A stretch of 14,415 bases of DNA from a virus. The notes below the pieces were generated by a model. It had not been told where the DNA came from and searched no databases. It saw nothing but the letters and a program-made list of their open reading frames with translations. Position 1 is the first letter of the stretch. Each line of letters begins with the position of its first letter. The translations under genes and the position numbers were made by a program. Shown here piece by piece: positions 3,200-9,539 of the stretch. The stretch lies in UHGV virus genome UHGV-0068976. One strand, given 5' to 3'.

Positions 3200-3485
3200 T
3201 ACTGATAGCGCCATAGCGTGATCGATAATTACGCAGGCGCGGGTCAATTTCAGGGAAGTGGGTATATGTGGCTTTGCGGAACGGTCGGATTGATGTCTGG
3301 TAAATTCGCTCGCGTTCTTCTTTCTCTGCAAGCCATATACAATGACGAAATTCCTTTTCCTCTTTCGTTTCCTGCGGTAGCGACATTATCAGGTCATAGT
3401 TTTTTCTGAATTTATCCAGCACCTCCGATACGGAATTGCCGGAACAGCGGCGCGGGTCATCCGCACCATACATAGGCGCTGGCAT
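3192..3485 (-). CDS. Hypothetical protein (97 aa)
   Basis: ORF with ATG at 3483-3485 preceded by SD AGGAGA at about 5 nt. Located directly downstream of the exonuclease gene in the same operon. No motif recognised. Confidence 0.6.
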
Positions 3486-3501
3486 GTTTTTCTCCTGTTG
3501 A

Positions 3502-4050
3502 TTATTTAGCTAATTTTTTCCAGATTGCTGAAACGTATTTGGCTTGGTGGATGGCATCATCAAGCGCGTTGTGGCGAGTTCCTTTGAATGGCATATCTCG
3601 CTTAGGGTCGAATCCTATTACCTTTCCAAGCTCGACGATTGTTCTTACGTCGCGGTCATTCCACCACTGCCACGGAACTGGCCACCCTGTCAGCGAATAA
3701 CTGTTTCGGAGAATAACGCAGTCAAATGATGCTCCATTCCCCCAAACCTGAACGAATTTGTGGTTAGCGTTCTTTATGATGAATTCAGATAACCATGAAA
3801 GAGCCGTTGAAAGCTCCTGAGCGTTGCTGGTTAGCGATTTTCTGGCTTCTTCACTCTGTTCCAGCCACCATAAAATCGTTGAAGCGTCAGGACGCGCCCG
3901 ATATCGCATTGATGACTCAAGCGAGATATTTACCGAGAACTCTTCTCCTGTTTCTCCGGTATTCGGGTCAAAGAATACCGCCCCAATAGAAATAACTGGC
4001 GCGTATGGCCCGTTGCCCATTGTTTCAAGGTCAACCATCAAGTGATTCAT
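3502..4050 (-). CDS. DnaQ-like (DEDDh) 3'-5' exonuclease
   Basis: 182-aa ORF. Exo I-type motif MVDLETMG near the N-terminus and H-x4-D Exo III-type motif (HNALDDAIH) near the C-terminus. Start ATG 8 nt after the ssb stop with AAGGA in between. Confidence 0.8.
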   Translation of the reverse strand: MNHLMVDLETMGNGPYAPVISIGAVFFDPNTGETGEEFSVNISLESSMRYRARPDASTILWWLEQSEEARKSLTSNAQELSTALSWLSEFIIKNANHKFVQVWGNGASFDCVILRNSYSLTGWPVPWQWWNDRDVRTIVELGKVIGFDPKRDMPFKGTRHNALDDAIHQAKYVSAIWKKLAK

Positions 4051-4058
4051 GTAAGTCC

Positions 4059-4565
4059 TTAAATTGCGTGAATAGCGTGACGAGGGAAGGGGAGAGTTAC
4101 TGGTGCAAAGGGTATATCGTCGTCAAAATCCATCGGAGGTTCGTTGTGTTGTGCTGGTGATGATTGCTGCTGTGGCTTCTGTGATTGCCTGCTGGCTGCT
4201 TGTTGTTTGCTGTCGCCAATGCCGCCAAGCATCTGCATCACGCCATTAATTCCGACATGAACCTCGGTTGTGTAACGGTCTTGCCCTGACTGGTCTTTCC
4301 ACTTTCTGGTTCTCAGCATTCCCTCGAAATAAATCTGATCACCTTTTTTCACATACTGCCCCACGACCTCAGCCAGTTTCCCGGATACAGCAACACGATG
4401 CCATTCAGTCAATTCCTTTTGCTCGCCAGTATTTTTATCTCGCCATTGTTCTGACGTGGCTATTGTCAGGTTAGCGAACGCTGTTCCTGATGGTGAGTAT
4501 CGAACTTCCGGGTCTTGTCCTACCCGACCAAGGATAATCACCTTATTTACGCCTCTGCTTGCCAT
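4059..4565 (-). CDS. ssb: Single-stranded DNA-binding protein (SSB) with extended C-terminus
   Basis: N-terminal OB-fold region is a close match to bacterial SSB as recalled ([44 protein letters not shown]...), followed by a Q/P/S-rich linker and the acidic tip MDFDDDIPF. The frame continues 15 more codons ([15 protein letters not shown]) to TAA at 4059-4061. ATG at 4563-4565 directly abuts the upstream gene's TAA. Confidence 0.92.
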
Positions 4566-5273
4566 TTATGCCGCCTGTTTTAGTTCGTTAACTCTGATGT
4601 TCATTATCTGAACGCATTTAGCCTGCGCCTCCTCGTTGCCAGCCATTAATTGCCAGTCACGCTGATAACGCTCGATGAGTTTTTTCTTGTCAGTTTCTGT
4701 TGACGCATAATCGCTGAAGTCTTTCAGGATTTGTTCGCAGTCAACCGATGGAGATTTCTGGTTGGTATTTTCTGGTGATGGTTTGTTATCTGATGCTGGG
4801 ATTGCCCATCCCGGAAGCGATGGAGGGAGCCAGTAAAATCCTGTTCCATCCTTCAGTTTTGCCCTGTGCCACCCCTGCTTTTTATCGAGAGATGTTTGTG
4901 CGAAACCTTCCTCAAGGTTATACAGATACCGACCGATTCCCCACTGAACGGCAGCGCGCTTCATTGCACCGGAACGACCACCTTTGACGGCTTCTACCTG
5001 CGTGTTTTCAGCAGCATCCCATTTGGTTACCCATTCGGAATCAATCTTTATTGATATGCCGCATTCAACGCCGCCGTTGTTGGGAATATCGCGGTATTCA
5101 TTGCGCCATCCTGCTTTGCCGCAAACATCGTCCAGGCGTTTCATGATTGCCCGGTTCGTGACATAAGCCAGCACCATAGCCCACACCTTGCCATCGCGTG
5201 TTTTACCGCTTTGCTGTATTCGCCATTCGATATCTTCAGGGCTGAATGGCTCATCGAATTTGTTCAAATCCAT
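4566..5273 (-). CDS. Single-strand annealing protein, Rad52/Erf-like recombinase
   Basis: 235-aa ORF immediately upstream of ssb and the exonuclease (TAA-ATG junction). N-terminal region (GKVWAMVLAYVTNRAIMKRLDDVCGKAGWRNEY) resembles Rad52/Sak-type annealing proteins as recalled; C-terminal tail (ETDKKKLIERYQRDWQLMAGNEEAQAKCVQIMNIRVNELKQAA) resembles the C-terminus of P22 Erf as recalled. SD GAGGTGA precedes the start. Confidence 0.75.
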   Translation of the reverse strand: MDLNKFDEPFSPEDIEWRIQQSGKTRDGKVWAMVLAYVTNRAIMKRLDDVCGKAGWRNEYRDIPNNGGVECGISIKIDSEWVTKWDAAENTQVEAVKGGRSGAMKRAAVQWGIGRYLYNLEEGFAQTSLDKKQGWHRAKLKDGTGFYWLPPSLPGWAIPASDNKPSPENTNQKSPSVDCEQILKDFSDYASTETDKKKLIERYQRDWQLMAGNEEAQAKCVQIMNIRVNELKQAA

Positions 5274-6017: not shown

Positions 6018-6260
6018 TTAACCATCAACAAACTCTTCTGGTAATTTATCAACCAGTTGATGACTTATTATCAGCCATTTGCCATCCTTCGTTTCGTATG
6101 CATATTTCTGGTCTTTTATCATCATGTGTTCGGCTACTGCCCTAACTGCCTGATCGGTGACATCTTCTCTCTTTCCTACCCACATTCCTTTTTCAGTGTT
6201 TAATGTTCCTTGAAAAATACGACCGCTTAATGGGCTTGCGCCCATAGTTTTTACTCTCAT
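6018..6260 (-). CDS. Hypothetical protein (80 aa)
   Basis: ORF in the N-cIII interval; ATG at 6258-6260. No recognised motif. Confidence 0.5.
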   Translation of the reverse strand: MRVKTMGASPLSGRIFQGTLNTEKGMWVGKREDVTDQAVRAVAEHMMIKDQKYAYETKDGKWLIISHQLVDKLPEEFVDG

Positions 6261-6552: not shown

Positions 6553-6825
6553 TTACCTCGCTGTCAGTTGTTTTGATTTCCGGTATCCTGCCGCGTAAAG
6601 AGCTACGTTTGGCAGGCAAATACTTCCACTGCGTTCATCTTCTTCCTTACAGCGAAGGCTTCCGAGTGATGCTGCTTTATCTGCTCTGACGCAACCAGAG
6701 AGCTTTAGCGCAATTTTTCGCGCCAGTGCTTCATTACTGCGTCGCTCGGCAATAAGTTCTGCTCTGCGAGCTTTGTAGCGGCTTTTTGCCGTACCTTTGG
6801 ATTCTTTCCAGACAATGGTTACCAT
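6553..6825 (-). CDS. N: N-like transcription antitermination protein (P22 gp24-like)
   Basis: 90-aa product from ATG at 6823-6825 with SD AAGGAGA. N-terminal arginine-rich motif (GTAKSRYKARRAELIAERR) and C-terminal LPNVALYAAGYRKSKQLTAR, which closely resembles the C-terminus of the P22 N-like protein as recalled. Lies directly downstream of a boxA/boxB nut site and the pL/OL region. Confidence 0.8.
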   Translation of the reverse strand: MVTIVWKESKGTAKSRYKARRAELIAERRSNEALARKIALKLSGCVRADKAASLGSLRCKEEDERSGSICLPNVALYAAGYRKSKQLTAR

Positions 6826-6935
6826 GATGGTCTCCTTTAAGTGGCTTTGGCGCATGACGCGTCGAGGTGCTTATCTTCTCGATCGCTGTCTTGCAGCTGC
6901 AATTCGCGCCATCCCCAAAACCACTCAAGTTCTGG

Positions 6936-7091: not shown

Positions 7092-7302
7092 TATGATTTT
7101 TTTGTGTAAATAGTTTTACCCGCGATGGTTTTGCTTACTTAAGTCGGTGGCAACAGCAGGATGGGTGCTGAAAAGTTCGAAAAACGAGCGAAGGGGGGGT
7201 GGCGAGATGGCGGGATATGGGAGTTGTATTAAGAATTATAGTAATTTAATCAATAGTTTGGACCGGCGGGCAGGTGCTGTCCTGATAGTGATCGGCGGGC
7301 AA

Positions 7303-7327
7303 TAAAAAACCCGGCTCGGTGGCCGGG
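7303..7327 (-). terminator. Intrinsic terminator downstream of the two-gene cassette
   Basis: Minus-strand RNA: CCCGGC-CACCGA-GCCGGG followed by UUUUUUAUU (plus-strand stem 7310-7327, A-run 7303-7309). Lies 8 nt past the stop of the 310-aa gene. Confidence 0.7.
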
Positions 7328-7334
7328 TGAGATA

Positions 7335-8267
7335 TTAAAGAACCGATTTAACAAGATGGTTTTTACGGTACAGACCTATGCGATCATTGTGAATCTCAGT
7401 AGTCTCCACTAAAAGAGAAACAATCTGTCCGACCTTGTGTTTTTTTTGTATTAAATCTAGCATTTCAATCGGATAGGAAGCCTTTAAATGTTCACCACCA
7501 ACATCAAGCTCCAGCTTCCCATATTTGGATAGAACGACCAGTTCGCCTGTAACCGTTTCAGTAATGGGAGGGGATGAAATGGTTGATGTAAGTCTACTCA
7601 CCAAGTACTTAATTTTATTGGAGTCAATAGTTGCCACCTTGGTGCCATTACTAAATGGACCGGTCCAACTTGCATCAAATGTTAAGTTGTGTTTATCGCA
7701 TTCCTCTACGATTCTCTTAAGGCTTACAGTGGAATTGTATCCAATTTCAGCGACGTGATTCATGAAGTTGTTGTCGTCATCGCTTAACAACAAATCGAAT
7801 ATGCCTTTTACAGCCTTGCTGGGTACTGTTTCTACTAATTCTGCTATTCCTGTAGAGAAGGTGACGCCCAATTTTGTAGACCCAGGGGATAAATCAGCCA
7901 GCCTGAGGTTTAAGGAGCTTTTCACGTCGTAGGGAACTTTTTTTGAGTCCTTGCCTGAGGCAATTTTGTGTGTTGCTCTTTGTATTAGCGCTGCAAGATT
8001 TGTTGAAATAGCCCCAAGCAGCTCTAAAGGAATAGAGCCAAAGTCAACCTCAGAGCCTTTCAGCCGCAGCTCAAAAAAATCGATAAGTGGGTGCCGACTA
8101 TCTTGCTTTAATTTTTCGGCCTTCAAATCGCTCAGATGAGAATCCATGGAGCGATAAAGAAGCATGTCAGCAAAGGACCTGGTTTTGTTTTGCTTCATTG
8201 CATCGACTTCTTTTTGAATGAAATCAATGCGTTTATCGCAATTTTTAAACATTGATTTATCATTCAT
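7335..8267 (-). CDS. Hypothetical 310-aa protein, second gene of the accessory cassette in the cI-pL interval
   Basis: Long ORF in AT-rich DNA. ATG at 8265-8267 overlaps the upstream gene's TGA (ATGA coupling) with SD GAGGA 7 nt upstream. No recognisable catalytic motif by eye. Followed by a strong terminator. Confidence 0.8.
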   Translation of the reverse strand: MNDKSMFKNCDKRIDFIQKEVDAMKQNKTRSFADMLLYRSMDSHLSDLKAEKLKQDSRHPLIDFFELRLKGSEVDFGSIPLELLGAISTNLAALIQRATHKIASGKDSKKVPYDVKSSLNLRLADLSPGSTKLGVTFSTGIAELVETVPSKAVKGIFDLLLSDDDNNFMNHVAEIGYNSTVSLKRIVEECDKHNLTFDASWTGPFSNGTKVATIDSNKIKYLVSRLTSTISSPPITETVTGELVVLSKYGKLELDVGGEHLKASYPIEMLDLIQKKHKVGQIVSLLVETTEIHNDRIGLYRKNHLVKSVL

Positions 8268-8743
8268 AAAAAAATCCTCACTAACCCTTTCGGGTTTTCA
8301 CTGCGATCAAAACCAAACCAACCGCGCCAGTAGCTACGCCAGTACTCATAATCATAGTTAGGGTCATCTAAATTCTTCATGAGTAGTAGGACATCAATTT
8401 TGTAGTTTTGTTTGATGTAGTTTCGGTCAAGCAAATTATCGACGCGGCCCCGAAGCATGACAGGTATTGAGTTTATATTGCTATAGTCACATACCAACAA
8501 AATATCAATATCATCAGGCTCTGGTTTAGACGTGGTGTATGAACCATCAACCCATATTTCTGTAAAACAGCCATATTGAGCAGATAATTCTCGAATAGAT
8601 TCGAGTAGCTGTATAAAATTACAGTATAGCATGCCTCGCCTGGATGATGAAGGAAAGCAATCGACACAATACGATTTTAATCCAGCTTCATCCATGTCAT
8701 GGAACCCTGGCTCAAACAGGGGTGGGTAATTAATTTTATCCAT
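8264..8743 (-). CDS. Minimal nucleotidyltransferase-fold protein (Pol-beta superfamily-like), first gene of the accessory cassette
   Basis: 159-aa ORF with AAGG SD. Contains GS-x9-D-x-D (VDGSYTTSKPEPDDIDILLV), the signature arrangement of Pol-beta-type/minimal nucleotidyltransferases, with a further acidic residue on a hydrophobic stretch (KIDVLLLM). AT-rich codon usage. Confidence 0.8.
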   Translation of the reverse strand: MDKINYPPLFEPGFHDMDEAGLKSYCVDCFPSSSRRGMLYCNFIQLLESIRELSAQYGCFTEIWVDGSYTTSKPEPDDIDILLVCDYSNINSIPVMLRGRVDNLLDRNYIKQNYKIDVLLLMKNLDDPNYDYEYWRSYWRGWFGFDRSENPKGLVRIFL

Positions 8744-8891
8744 AAAAAACCTTGCTATACATTTGTTTTTTTATTAAAAATCTAACCACCGAAATGGTGA
8801 CGGCAAGATGTTACATGGGGTTACAATCAGCCAATACACCGCATTAAATAATTTTTTCACCAGCTATGCGCCGACCAGAACACCTTGCCCA

Positions 8892-9539
8892 TCACCCAAA
8901 CGTCTCTTCAGGCCACTGCGCCTTAACTACCTTGCCTATGATGCGGCAGCTATGGTCGCAATCCAGGGTTCTATATGCCGGGTTTAAAGGTACCAGGTAA
9001 CTAACCCCTGCATCCTTCTCATACTTCTTGAACGTTGCCTCTGAATCACCATTTGCAGAAGCCACGCAGAAATCCCCAGACTCTACCGGCTCAGCCGGAT
9101 CAACGAGTATCAGCATGCCTTCCGGAAAACTTGGACGAACCCCCTGAGGCGCCGTCATTGAATGCCCCTTCACCTCAAGCCAGAAAGCTTTTTCGCTGGC
9201 TTTTGTGGTCGTTGGGACCCATGCCTTTGCATCGCTGGCTGTGTAGCTTCCCACCTCCGAAAATGGCCCGGCCTGCACTGAAGAAAATAACGGGTATTCA
9301 TATTGGCGAAATACGGCGTCTGAATCCTCGCCAAACATTATTTTTGCCGGAGATACGCCGAGTGCCGCCCCAAGAACCAGCGCGTCATCCGCGCTAACCT
9401 TTCTTGTTCCTAACTCGTAGTTCCCCAGGCGTGAAGGCGCAGCCCAGCCGCAAAGCTTGGCCAATTGAGCCTGGCTAAGTCCTTTAGCTTCTCTAAGGGA
9501 CTTGATCCTTTCCCCGATAATTTCATGCATCGTTTTCAT
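8892..9539 (-). CDS. cI: CI-like phage repressor (N-terminal HTH, C-terminal LexA/S24-type autopeptidase)
   Basis: 215-aa ORF divergent from a cro-like gene across an operator-bearing intergenic region. N-terminal HTH segment ([24 protein letters not shown]), candidate Ala-Gly cleavage site (VQAGP), and serine/lysine dyad motifs (GHSM; FKKY) typical of S24 self-cleaving repressors. Confidence 0.9.

What the first reader, a model, noticed from the sequence alone, without database searches (positions are those of the whole stretch)
7335..8267. Cassette gene 2: 310-aa partner protein with no recognisable fold
Translationally coupled to the nucleotidyltransferase gene and equally AT-rich. No nuclease, ATPase, HTH or transmembrane signature was recognised by eye. 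One short R-x4-H pattern (YRSMDSH near residue 40) is at most a weak hint of a HEPN-like motif and should not be relied on. As the larger, unclassifiable partner it may be the effector, sensor or substrate-recognition component of the module.
Basis: inference. Interest (0 to 1): 0.6.

Follow-up and report, generated by a model that had tools for sequence, protein, structure and literature searches.

The report
Modular partner of a prophage nucleotidyltransferase
This 310-aa gene is real and is the obligate partner of a small nucleotidyltransferase in a two-gene cassette that lambda-like prophages carry just after their repressor gene; it is already listed as an untested anti-phage candidate (PDC-M63B), and it most likely acts as the regulating or sensing subunit rather than the killing enzyme.

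Summary
The ORF (7335-8267, minus strand, 310 aa) is real. Its start overlaps the stop of the upstream DUF6932 nucleotidyltransferase gene (ATGA), and it is AT-rich (40.5% GC against 52.5% for cI). It is not unclassifiable: it matches PADLOC candidate PDC-M63B (7.5e-45) and PHROG 6603, and gene 1 matches PDC-M63A. The window is a mEpX1-like lambdoid prophage, and the cassette sits between cI and N, where lambda carries rexAB. A 1.6-kb block (spacer, A, B, terminator) is over 99% identical next to many different repressors.

Structure prediction gives three parts:
- an N-terminal helical hairpin;
- a central alpha/beta domain with no PDB match;

The R-x4-H hint fails, because the Arg is not conserved.

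The nucleotidyltransferase gene lies directly upstream in 59 of 59 testable viral loci. A partner gene follows it in 75 of 76 metagenomic loci. Variant partners keep only the hairpin: alone, fused to TPR repeats, or followed by a SecB-like chaperone.

My reading is that the hairpin docks and restrains the nucleotidyltransferase (the likely toxin), and that the central and OB domains sense or target. This is inference. The single published test of PDC-M63AB found no defence.

The parts
7335..8267 (-). Gene B (the finding): 310-aa PDC-M63B / PHROG 6603 protein
   Evidence: ORF and translation; PADLOC 7.5e-45; PHROG 3.4e-147; 267 homologous 50%-identity clusters
8091..8267 (-). B residues 1-59: N-terminal helical hairpin (helices 10-25 and 32-57). 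It is the only part shared with all alternative DUF6932 partners, so it is the proposed A-docking or neutralising module.
   Evidence: AF2 secondary structure; hairpin-only, hairpin+TPR and hairpin+SecB variants; S40 invariant in alignment A6
7569..8090 (-). B residues 60-233: central alpha/beta domain with no solved-structure match. Conserved polar residues are D/E63, R68, R122, S130 (100%), S/T131 and S/T136.
7338..7568 (-). B residues 234-310: C-terminal OB-fold (strand-strand-strand-helix-strand-strand)
8264..8743 (-). Gene A: 159-aa DUF6932 / PDC-M63A minimal Pol-beta-type nucleotidyltransferase with G67-S68, D78-x-D80 and D117
   Evidence: Pfam 1.7e-24; PADLOC 1.8e-41; motif conservation; some relatives also hit PF01909 or PF18765
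8264..8279 (-). Translational coupling: ATGA stop/start overlap (8264-8267) and GAGGA Shine-Dalgarno for B (8275-8279)
   Evidence: Sequence read directly. A 4-nt overlap is the commonest junction in the other loci; a few nt of gap or overlap, or longer apparent overlaps in my own ORF calls, make up the rest.
7300..7328 (-). Intrinsic terminator directly after B (7-bp GC-rich stem, then a T run)
   Evidence: Terminator scan. The sequence is shared with VT1-Sakai-type phages, where a 'terminator' feature is annotated under the match.
8744..8891 (-). 148-nt spacer between cI and A that travels with the cassette. It holds a weak terminator-like hairpin at 8804-8785. The scan found no consensus promoter here.
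7290..8918 (-). Mobile 1.6-kb block (end of cI, spacer, A, B, terminator), over 99% identical in prophages with unrelated repressors and flanks
   Evidence: blastn break-points in 11 IMG/VR loci; repressor diversity
8892..9539 (-). cI-type repressor (HTH + Peptidase_S24) immediately upstream on the same strand
   Evidence: Pfam; annotation of mEpX1 and E. coli PC6
6553..6855 (-). Antiterminator N gene downstream, which defines the cI-to-N (rexAB-equivalent) slot
   Evidence: Pfam N_peptide 1.5e-17; mEpX1 annotation

Best explanation
Gene B is the modular regulatory or sensor subunit of a two-gene, toxin-antitoxin-like prophage cassette (PADLOC candidate PDC-M63AB). The enzyme of the cassette is the upstream DUF6932 minimal nucleotidyltransferase (A). 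The cassette is a self-contained 1.6-kb moron placed just after the repressor gene cI of lambdoid prophages, in the slot where lambda carries rexAB. It is therefore probably expressed in lysogens together with cI. Proposed mechanism (inferred, not shown): B is made in step with A through translational coupling, and its N-terminal helical hairpin docks on A and holds the nucleotidyltransferase in check. The central domain and the C-terminal OB-fold bind an infection-specific ligand, most plausibly single-stranded nucleic acid or a phage protein. Ligand binding releases or redirects A, which then nucleotidylylates an essential RNA or protein target and stops growth (abortive infection or superinfection exclusion). 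What is shown here: the gene is real, it always pairs with A, it has a three-part architecture, its C-terminus is an OB-fold, its position and mobility are as described, and hairpin-only, hairpin+TPR and hairpin+SecB variants exist. What is inferred: the A-B contact through the hairpin, A being the toxic effector, the nature of the trigger, and the anti-phage outcome.
For: Identity: PDC-M63B 7.5e-45 and PDC-M63A 1.8e-41. PDC systems are untested candidates found embedded in BREX, DISARM or type I RM systems.

Position: N, terminator, B, A, cI on one strand, as in phage mEpX1 and E. coli PC6, and the same cI-A-B-...-N order in Erwinia phage 59. In about 55 of 57 IMG/VR loci the gene upstream of A is a repressor: S24+HTH proteins of at least 9 families below 50% identity, one of which looks like lambda cI itself by my reading, or a 128-aa HTH protein. 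The cI-to-N slot is a known mosaic hotspot that holds rexAB and bstA.

Mobility: a block of over 99% identity, 7290-8918, recurs next to different repressors.

Obligate pairing: A lies directly upstream in all 6 genome loci, in 59 of 59 testable viral loci, and in loci down to about 22% identity. Among loci fetched through A alone, 75 of 76 testable have a downstream ORF that matches the B profile. A remote pair exists in a Streptococcus satellite (hhalign 94%).

A looks catalytically competent: GS...DxD...D is conserved.

B looks non-catalytic: the conserved residues are mostly Gly, Pro, Trp and Leu.

Modularity: partners of A keep only profile positions about 1-60. The variants are L127 (hairpin + TPR, TPR_2 3.4e-15), L155 (hairpin + another domain), L168/L169, L171 and L172 (79-96 aa, hairpin only), and Treponema L026 (105-aa hairpin protein followed by a SecB-like PD-T4-9_C chaperone), which has the layout of toxin-antitoxin-chaperone systems in which the chaperone stabilises the antitoxin. 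The central domain also occurs without hairpin or A, in PDC-M32A.

Neighbours elsewhere are defence or TA genes: MmeI-type RM, Mrr, Gp49/HTH, HicAB.
Against: The one experimental test found no phenotype: deleting PDC-M63AB in E. coli NILS69 did not change the infectivity of 10 virulent phages.

DUF6932 relatives overlap Pfam families PF01909 and PF18765. In HEPN-MNT modules such nucleotidyltransferases are the antitoxin, not the toxin (own knowledge).

The OB domain is near-neutral (pI 7.45), so nucleic-acid binding is not assured; OB-folds also bind proteins.

The TAC-like Treponema arrangement comes from one lineage (two contigs). Some hairpin-only partners could be decayed genes, although L169 and L171 have visibly related short partners.

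Per-domain identity does not show the hairpin co-varying with A more than the other domains do.

No promoter was found in the spacer, and a weak hairpin lies between cI and A, so expression in lysogens is only inferred from position.
Confidence: 0.5

Rival explanations
1. Reverse polarity, as in HEPN-MNT (type VII toxin-antitoxin). B would be the toxin or effector, for example by sequestering single-stranded nucleic acid through its OB-fold or acting through the conserved D/E63-R68-R122-S130 site. A would be an enzymatic antitoxin that inactivates B by nucleotidylylation, with the invariant Ser130 in a lower-confidence loop as the candidate acceptor.
For: A is a minimal nucleotidyltransferase of about 150 aa, and its relatives also hit PF01909 and PF18765. 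The gene order (nucleotidyltransferase first, overlapping partner second) matches MNT-HEPN operons (own knowledge). S130 is invariant in 89 diverse sequences, G129 is 99% conserved, and the segment has lower pLDDT (55 in the full model, 79 in the N-terminal model).
Against: No HEPN fold or conserved R-x4-6-H. Natural partners that lack the whole central domain, and so lack S130, still pair with A; an 80-100-aa helical hairpin is an unlikely toxin. In Treponema the SecB-like chaperone follows the hairpin protein, which is the place of a chaperone-dependent antitoxin.
Confidence: 0.2
2. The cassette is not an anti-phage system. It would be either a plain addiction or stabilisation module for the prophage, or a phage-physiology function in which an OB-fold DNA/RNA-binding protein and a nucleotidyltransferase act on phage or host nucleic acid (lysogeny control, repair or tRNA modification).
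For: The only published test saw no defence. The defence label rests on guilt by embedding and on position. Some copies sit beside housekeeping genes (L011, L024).
Against: The cassette is an accessory, low-GC block swapped between phages with different immunity and is present in only a small minority of E. coli genomes (18 of 5426 carry this allele over at least 80% of its length). It recurs next to RM, TA and Mrr genes and in the rexAB/bstA slot. The variable C-terminal modules (OB, TPR) on a constant coupling element resemble sensor swapping in immune systems.
Confidence: 0.15
3. Signalling system of the CBASS type. A would synthesise a nucleotide second messenger on infection, and B would be the receptor and effector.
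For: A's profile has a weak, non-significant similarity to an E. coli CD-NTase (6e0k, E 0.58) and to the Pol beta palm.
Against: A is only about 150 aa, roughly half the size of CD-NTases (own knowledge), and no PADLOC CBASS model hits it. B has no known effector or cyclic-nucleotide receptor domain. The tight ATGA coupling and the hairpin-only partners fit a stoichiometric complex better than a diffusible signal.
Confidence: 0.05

Closest known systems
PADLOC phage defence candidate PDC-M63 (PDC-M63A + PDC-M63B), from Payne et al. guilt-by-embedding, bioRxiv 10.1101/2024.01.29.577857
   Same: Both proteins hit the PDC-M63 models end to end (7.5e-45 and 1.8e-41), with the same two-gene order.
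   Different: PDC-M63 is only a catalogue entry. It has no described fold, mechanism or validated phenotype, and one native-host deletion was negative. The domain dissection, the OB-fold, the hairpin-only, TPR and SecB variants and the cI-downstream mobility are additions made here.
HEPN-MNT (HepT-MntA) type VII toxin-antitoxin modules
   Same: A minimal Pol-beta nucleotidyltransferase is encoded first, overlapping a larger partner gene. The module is accessory, mobile and associated with defence islands.
   Different: The partner is not HEPN: there is no R-x4-6-H motif, no HEPN fold and no RNase motif. The variant partners suggest that the nucleotidyltransferase, not the partner, is the effector.
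Nucleotidyltransferase toxins MenT / AbiEii (DUF1814) with their antitoxins
   Same: The proposed logic is the same: a nucleotidyltransferase toxin held by a cognate protein partner and used in abortive infection.
   Different: There is no sequence membership; A is DUF6932, about half their size, and no DUF1814 or AbiEii hit was found. The gene order is reversed (toxin first). The partner has no AbiEi- or MenA-like domains.
Toxin-antitoxin-chaperone (TAC) systems such as CmdTAC / PD-T4-9
   Same: The Treponema relative has DUF6932, then a 105-aa hairpin protein, then a SecB-like protein that matches PD-T4-9_C (2.5e-10).
   Different: The window's cassette has no chaperone, and its partner carries the central and OB domains instead.
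Lambda rexAB and Salmonella BTP1 bstA (cI-downstream abortive-infection genes)
   Same: Same genomic slot between cI and N, same strand as cI, own terminator, and presumably transcribed with the repressor in lysogens. Some copies appear to sit after lambda-type cI itself (L032).
   Different: There is no sequence similarity (no Rex or BstA model hit). The biochemistry differs completely: a nucleotidyltransferase plus an OB-fold protein, rather than a sensor plus a membrane protein or a KilA-N protein.
OB-fold nucleic-acid-binding domains (RuvA domain I, SSB, RPA, PriB, AsnRS anticodon-binding domain)
   Different: Sequence identity is 8-20% and there is no Pfam SSB or tRNA_anti hit. The domain has a near-neutral pI. 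Its ligand is unknown.

Membership tests
PADLOC PDC-M63 (candidate system) | Protein matches a PDC-M63B profile over its full length | tested here: met
   PDLC04749, 7.5e-45, residues 23-304 against profile 20-300 of 309; five further PDC-M63B models also hit
PADLOC PDC-M63 (candidate system) | Adjacent PDC-M63A gene | tested here: met
   PDLC04744, 1.8e-41, for the gene at 8264-8743, which overlaps B by 4 nt
PADLOC PDC-M63 (candidate system) | Demonstrated anti-phage activity | not testable with these tools
   The literature has a single native-host deletion with no phenotype against 10 virulent phages. PDC systems are explicitly untested candidates.
HEPN toxins of HEPN-MNT modules | Conserved R-x4-6-H motif | tested here: not met
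   R40 varies even among close relatives (R, D, N, S) and is not among the conserved positions in 89 diverse sequences. H at the YRSMDSH position is only about 63% conserved.
HEPN toxins of HEPN-MNT modules | HEPN helical-bundle fold or a HEPN profile match | tested here: not met
HEPN-MNT modules | Upstream minimal nucleotidyltransferase with GS...DxD catalytic motif | tested here: met
   G67-S68, D78-x-D80 and D117 are conserved in alignment A4; Pfam DUF6932; relatives co-hit PF01909 and PF18765
OB-fold domains | Five-stranded beta-barrel with a helix between strands 3 and 4, and structural similarity to known OB-folds | tested here: met
OB-fold domains | Binding of single-stranded nucleic acid | not testable with these tools
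   Only indirect evidence: aromatic residues are conserved at positions 265 and 304, but the domain pI is 7.45.
Toxin-antitoxin-chaperone (TAC) systems | SecB-like chaperone gene in the operon | tested here: not met
   In the window, B is followed directly by a terminator and then the N region. A chaperone is present only in the Treponema variant.
RexAB / BstA | Sequence homology to RexA, RexB or BstA | tested here: not met
   No such PADLOC or Pfam hit. Only the genomic position is shared.
CBASS / CD-NTase signalling | CD-NTase-family cyclase plus an effector with a nucleotide-sensing domain | tested here: not met
   No CBASS model hits A or B. The A profile against CD-NTase 6e0k gives E 0.58. 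B has no SAVED, STING or other effector domain.
MenT / AbiEii nucleotidyltransferase toxins (DUF1814) | DUF1814/AbiEii profile match | tested here: not met
   A hits only DUF6932, plus a weak DNA_pol_B_palm match, in Pfam and only PDC-M63A in PADLOC.

The most novel reading that the evidence does not exclude
DUF6932 nucleotidyltransferases and their hairpin-bearing partners may form an undescribed class of toxin/sensor-antitoxin immune modules. A short helical hairpin would gate a minimal nucleotidyltransferase toxin, and interchangeable C-terminal sensors would set what is detected: a new alpha/beta fold plus OB-fold in PDC-M63B, TPR repeats, or none with a SecB-like chaperone. In lambdoid prophages this module would take the place of rexAB as the lysogen's exclusion system, with the OB-fold reading out phage single-stranded DNA or RNA intermediates.
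Probability: 0.3. Interest if true: 0.75.

Novelty: new variant of a known kind. Interest (0 to 1): 0.55.

Why it matters
The slot after cI is where lambda keeps rexAB, one of the oldest unsolved exclusion systems, and where Salmonella phage BTP1 keeps bstA. This 1.6-kb cassette fills that slot in many E. coli, Klebsiella, Serratia, Erwinia and Providencia prophages, apparently including ones with lambda-type cI. Its relatives extend to Bacteroidota, Nitrospirota, spirochaetes and streptococcal satellites. Neither protein has any described function.

The domain dissection turns 'hypothetical protein' into a specific, cheap set of tests: is A alone toxic, does B(1-59) neutralise it, and what does the OB-fold bind. 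Phage mEpX1 is a sequenced phage whose GenBank record names E. coli K-12 MG1655 as host, so the native system should be easy to work with.

If the model holds, it adds a nucleotidyltransferase toxin family with swappable sensors to the toxin-antitoxin-based immunity repertoire. It also gives a function to Pfam DUF6932 and to a new protein fold. If it fails, a PADLOC candidate can be down-weighted.

Tried and rejected
- **HEPN reading of YRSMDSH:** rejected. The Arg is not conserved and there is no HEPN fold or profile.
- **Pfam and NCBIfam on B, and Pfam on 89 relatives:** no recurring family.
- **PDB sequence searches with the B and A profiles:** nothing significant. The best hits were 7avh at E 0.0085 over 36 residues, and Pol beta or CD-NTase at E about 0.5.
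- **Foldseek against AFDB50:** the library was not available.
- **BFVD search:** three uncharacterised phage proteins, one labelled DUF6575. This is only a lead. DUF6575 is listed among domains in validated E. coli defence systems, but the Treponema DUF6575 neighbour hits no PADLOC model.
- **Viral scan with the 89-sequence alignment:** failed because no stretch was conserved enough.
- **Second homologue search with that alignment:** returned mostly the close relatives again.
- **Hairpin co-variation with A:** per-domain identities correlate equally (Spearman 0.74, 0.74 and 0.76), so the test does not discriminate.
- **RNA component or repeats in the cassette:** no Rfam hit and no meaningful repeats.
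- **Promoter in the cI-A spacer:** none at the scan's threshold.
- **Literature:** nothing for DUF6932 or for the RefSeq accessions.
- **'Not a gene' and 'membrane protein' readings:** rejected.

Full report

Yes. An ATG-to-TAA ORF of 310 codons lies at 7335-8267 on the minus strand. Its ATG (8267-8265) overlaps the TGA (8266-8264) of the upstream 159-codon gene at 8264-8743. A GAGGA Shine-Dalgarno sequence sits 7 nt before the ATG. Both genes are AT-rich: 39.6% and 40.5% GC, against 52.5% for cI and 47.2% for the window. The ORF codes for a real, selected protein. A profile of it finds 267 clusters at 50% identity among 1.84 billion representatives, and nearly all of the 150 listed are 300-325 aa and match end to end.

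**2. Where it sits**

The window is the immunity region of a lambdoid prophage. Over the 1.7-kb cassette region it is 99.6% identical to phage mEpX1 and 100% identical to prophages in several E. coli chromosomes.

On the minus strand the order is:
- cI (8892-9539, HTH + Peptidase_S24)
- a 148-nt spacer
- gene A
- gene B
- an intrinsic terminator (7328-7309 plus a T run)
- the pL/nutL region
- N (6553-6855)

On the plus strand come cro, cII, O and a primase-helicase. This is the slot where lambda carries rexAB and Salmonella phage BTP1 carries bstA. It is a recognised mosaic hotspot thought to be read from the repressor promoter in lysogens.

The cassette behaves as a discrete moron. A block from about 7290 to about 8918 (the last codons of cI, the spacer, A, B and the terminator) is over 99% identical in IMG/VR prophages whose repressors and flanks differ. 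Across 57 viral loci, the gene in front of A is a CI-type repressor in about 55. These are S24+HTH proteins of at least nine families below 50% identity, or a 128-aa HTH protein. One family looks like lambda cI itself by my reading of the sequence. Erwinia phage vB_EhrS_59 has the same cI-A-B-...-N order.

**3. It is already catalogued, but not understood**

B matches PADLOC PDC-M63B (7.5e-45) and PHROG 6603, which has unknown function. A matches PDC-M63A (1.8e-41), PHROG 9194 and Pfam DUF6932. PDC systems are 145 untested 'phage defence candidates', proposed because they occur embedded in BREX, DISARM or type I RM systems. The only test I found deleted PDC-M63AB from a prophage of E. coli NILS69 and saw no change in the infectivity of ten virulent phages. 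No paper in the library mentions DUF6932 or the RefSeq accessions.

**4. Anatomy of B**

AlphaFold2 on a 38-sequence alignment gave pLDDT 80.5 and pTM 0.67. A second run on residues 1-233, with a more diverse alignment, gave pLDDT 84.2 and pTM 0.72. There are three parts.

(i) Residues about 8-57 form a two-helix hairpin.

**5. The HEPN hint**

YRSMDSH is present, but the Arg varies even among close relatives (R, D, N, S) and is not a conserved position in the wide alignment. No HEPN fold or profile is found. What is conserved there is S40 and, less strongly, the His. These belong to a 'P[DN][DN]FA..L...S[ML]..H...L' signature of the hairpin.

**6. The partner enzyme**

A keeps the Pol-beta nucleotidyltransferase signature: G67-S68, then D78-x-D80 ten residues later, and a third acidic residue, D117. 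Some relatives also hit PF01909 and PF18765. No solved structure is detectable by sequence; Pol beta palm and a CD-NTase appear only at E about 0.5.

**7. Pairing and the informative exceptions**

A lies directly upstream of B in:
- all 6 genome loci;
- 59 of 59 testable viral loci;
- every distant relative I looked up, at about 20-28% identity. One of these is a locus where the gene caller had missed A and mis-started B.

Starting instead from A, the partner in Chishuiella (Bacteroidota), a Nitrospirota MAG and a Marinobacterium prophage is a B-family protein (E 1e-83 to 1e-115). Among 80 metagenome loci fetched through A alone, 75 of 76 testable have a downstream ORF that matches the B profile. 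A 4-nt overlap is the commonest junction. A Streptococcus satellite prophage carries A plus a remote B (hhalign 94%, E 1.4e-7).

The exceptions are the most informative result. In several loci the downstream protein matches only profile positions about 1-60:
- L127: hairpin fused to TPR repeats (TPR_2 3.4e-15).
- L155: hairpin plus an unrelated C-terminus.
- L168/L169, L171, L172: proteins of 79-96 aa that are hairpin only. One of these loci sits next to what look like terminase genes, by my reading of the ORFs.
- Treponema putidum: a 105-aa hairpin protein followed by a SecB-like protein that matches the chaperone of CmdTAC (PD-T4-9_C, 2.5e-10).

In TAC systems the SecB-like chaperone stabilises the antitoxin.

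**8. Mechanism**

Taken together, the hairpin is the constant element that goes with the nucleotidyltransferase, and everything after it is exchangeable. The simplest reading is a toxin-antitoxin-like module:
- A is the enzyme and likely toxin.
- The hairpin docks on A and restrains it.
- The C-terminal body senses or targets something. In this window that body is a new alpha/beta domain plus an OB-fold, so the ligand is plausibly a single-stranded nucleic acid or a phage protein.
- Infection would release or redirect A, which would nucleotidylylate an essential RNA or protein.

What is shown: the architecture, the pairing, the position, the mobility and the variants. What is inferred: the physical contact, the polarity (A as toxin), the ligand and the anti-phage outcome. 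I put this model at about 0.5.

The main rival (0.2) keeps the HEPN-MNT logic. There, A would be an antitoxin that nucleotidylylates B, with the invariant S130 in a lower-confidence loop as the attractive acceptor site. The hairpin-only partners and the position of the chaperone argue against it.

A non-defence role (0.15) stays open because of the negative NILS69 result. A CBASS-like signalling role is unlikely (0.05).

Further cautions:
- The OB domain is not basic (pI 7.45).
- The TAC-like case comes from one lineage.
- Per-domain identities do not single out the hairpin as co-varying with A.
- The cassette has no RNA family hit and no notable repeats.

**9. Comparison and novelty**

By membership this is PDC-M63, since both profile criteria are met. 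It is not a HEPN-MNT, MenT/AbiEii, CBASS, Rex or Bst member, because their defining sequence features were tested and not met.

By function it most resembles nucleotidyltransferase-based toxin-antitoxin or abortive-infection modules, and by position it resembles rexAB and bstA. The locus itself is known sequence (phage mEpX1) and a known candidate family. New here are the domain dissection, the OB-fold, the fold-less central domain shared with PDC-M32A, the modular partner series, and the scale of its linkage to cI. I rate it a new variant of a known kind, with moderate interest. It is uncharacterised, widespread, sits in a classic locus, and should be directly testable with mEpX1 in E. coli K-12, but nothing yet shows that it does anything.

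Noticed in passing
L026:4001-5240 (Treponema putidum contig JACDII010000023.1): DUF6932 gene followed by a 105-aa protein that matches only B's N-terminal hairpin, then a SecB-like protein that hits PADLOC PD-T4-9_C (the CmdTAC chaperone). This is a toxin-antitoxin-chaperone-like layout. A DUF6575 protein lies two genes upstream and an integrase downstream.
   Followed up: partly
L127:2992-4455 (metagenome contig Ga0193732_1000019): DUF6932 gene followed by a 336-aa protein whose first 53 or so residues match B's hairpin. The rest is TPR repeats (TPR_2 3.4e-15) instead of the central and OB domains.
   Followed up: partly
L169:60-838, L168, L171:662-1374, L172:837-1576: A sub-clade of DUF6932 in which 'HFGH.R.G' replaces 'WFGF.R', paired with 79-96-aa hairpin-only partners. 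In L169 the pair sits just upstream of what look like phage terminase genes by my reading of the ORFs. The short partners of L169 and L171 are clearly related, so they are probably functional minimal modules.
   Followed up: partly
window 7290-8918; L030-L045: The cassette travels as a block of over 99% identity with sharp break-points. One lies inside the last codons of cI and the other about 20-40 nt beyond the terminator. The block sits next to repressors of at least nine families, one of which looks like lambda cI itself (L032).
   Followed up: yes
window 62-146 aa of B; PADLOC PDC-M32A positions 5-90 (and 4-215 for L024 B): B's central domain is homologous to the N-terminal part of another untested PADLOC candidate, PDC-M32A (profile of about 376 positions), which has no hairpin. 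BFVD proteins of 370-381 aa (one labelled DUF6575, one from Leptospira phage LE1) match the same model structurally.
   Followed up: partly
L011:3800-4260 (JGI contig Ga0672856_0024461): The public gene call for the B homologue P0115 (355 aa) starts too early, and no gene was called for the DUF6932 ORF that ends just before the true B start. The 'N-terminal extension' is an annotation artefact.
   Followed up: yes
L020:3438-4806 (Streptococcus satellite phage Javan304, MK448417.1): The record annotates only a 68-aa CDS (3711-3917) where a full 159-aa DUF6932 ORF (3438-3917) exists. The next gene (about 300 aa) is a remote B homologue, which extends the pair to Firmicutes satellites.
   Followed up: yes
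L019:3429-4460 (Streptococcus phage MissE1): A DUF6932 gene is followed by only a 55-aa ORF with no detectable B similarity, then an ImmA/IrrE peptidase. A RelE/ParE toxin gene lies just upstream. B may have been lost here, or another partner type may be in use.
   Followed up: no
window 8785-8804 (minus strand): A weak terminator-like hairpin (6 bp, 3 GC pairs, T-poor tail) lies in the spacer between cI and gene A. It might attenuate read-through from the repressor promoter. The scan found no promoter-like site in the spacer.
   Followed up: no
window 3502-5273 and 6018-6260 (minus strand): The early-left operon carries an Rv2179c-like 3'-5' exoribonuclease (5.7e-73), an SSB, a Rad52/22-family annealing protein and a DUF7446 protein. 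This recombination module differs from the Bet-containing early-left region annotated in mEpX1, which shows the mosaicism around the identical cassette.
   Followed up: no
L028:4001-5382 (Marinobacterium stanieri prophage): Here the A-B pair is not next to a repressor. It is inserted on the opposite strand between the lysis/terminase genes and a block that includes Dam and replication genes, so this is a second moron site for the same cassette type.
   Followed up: no
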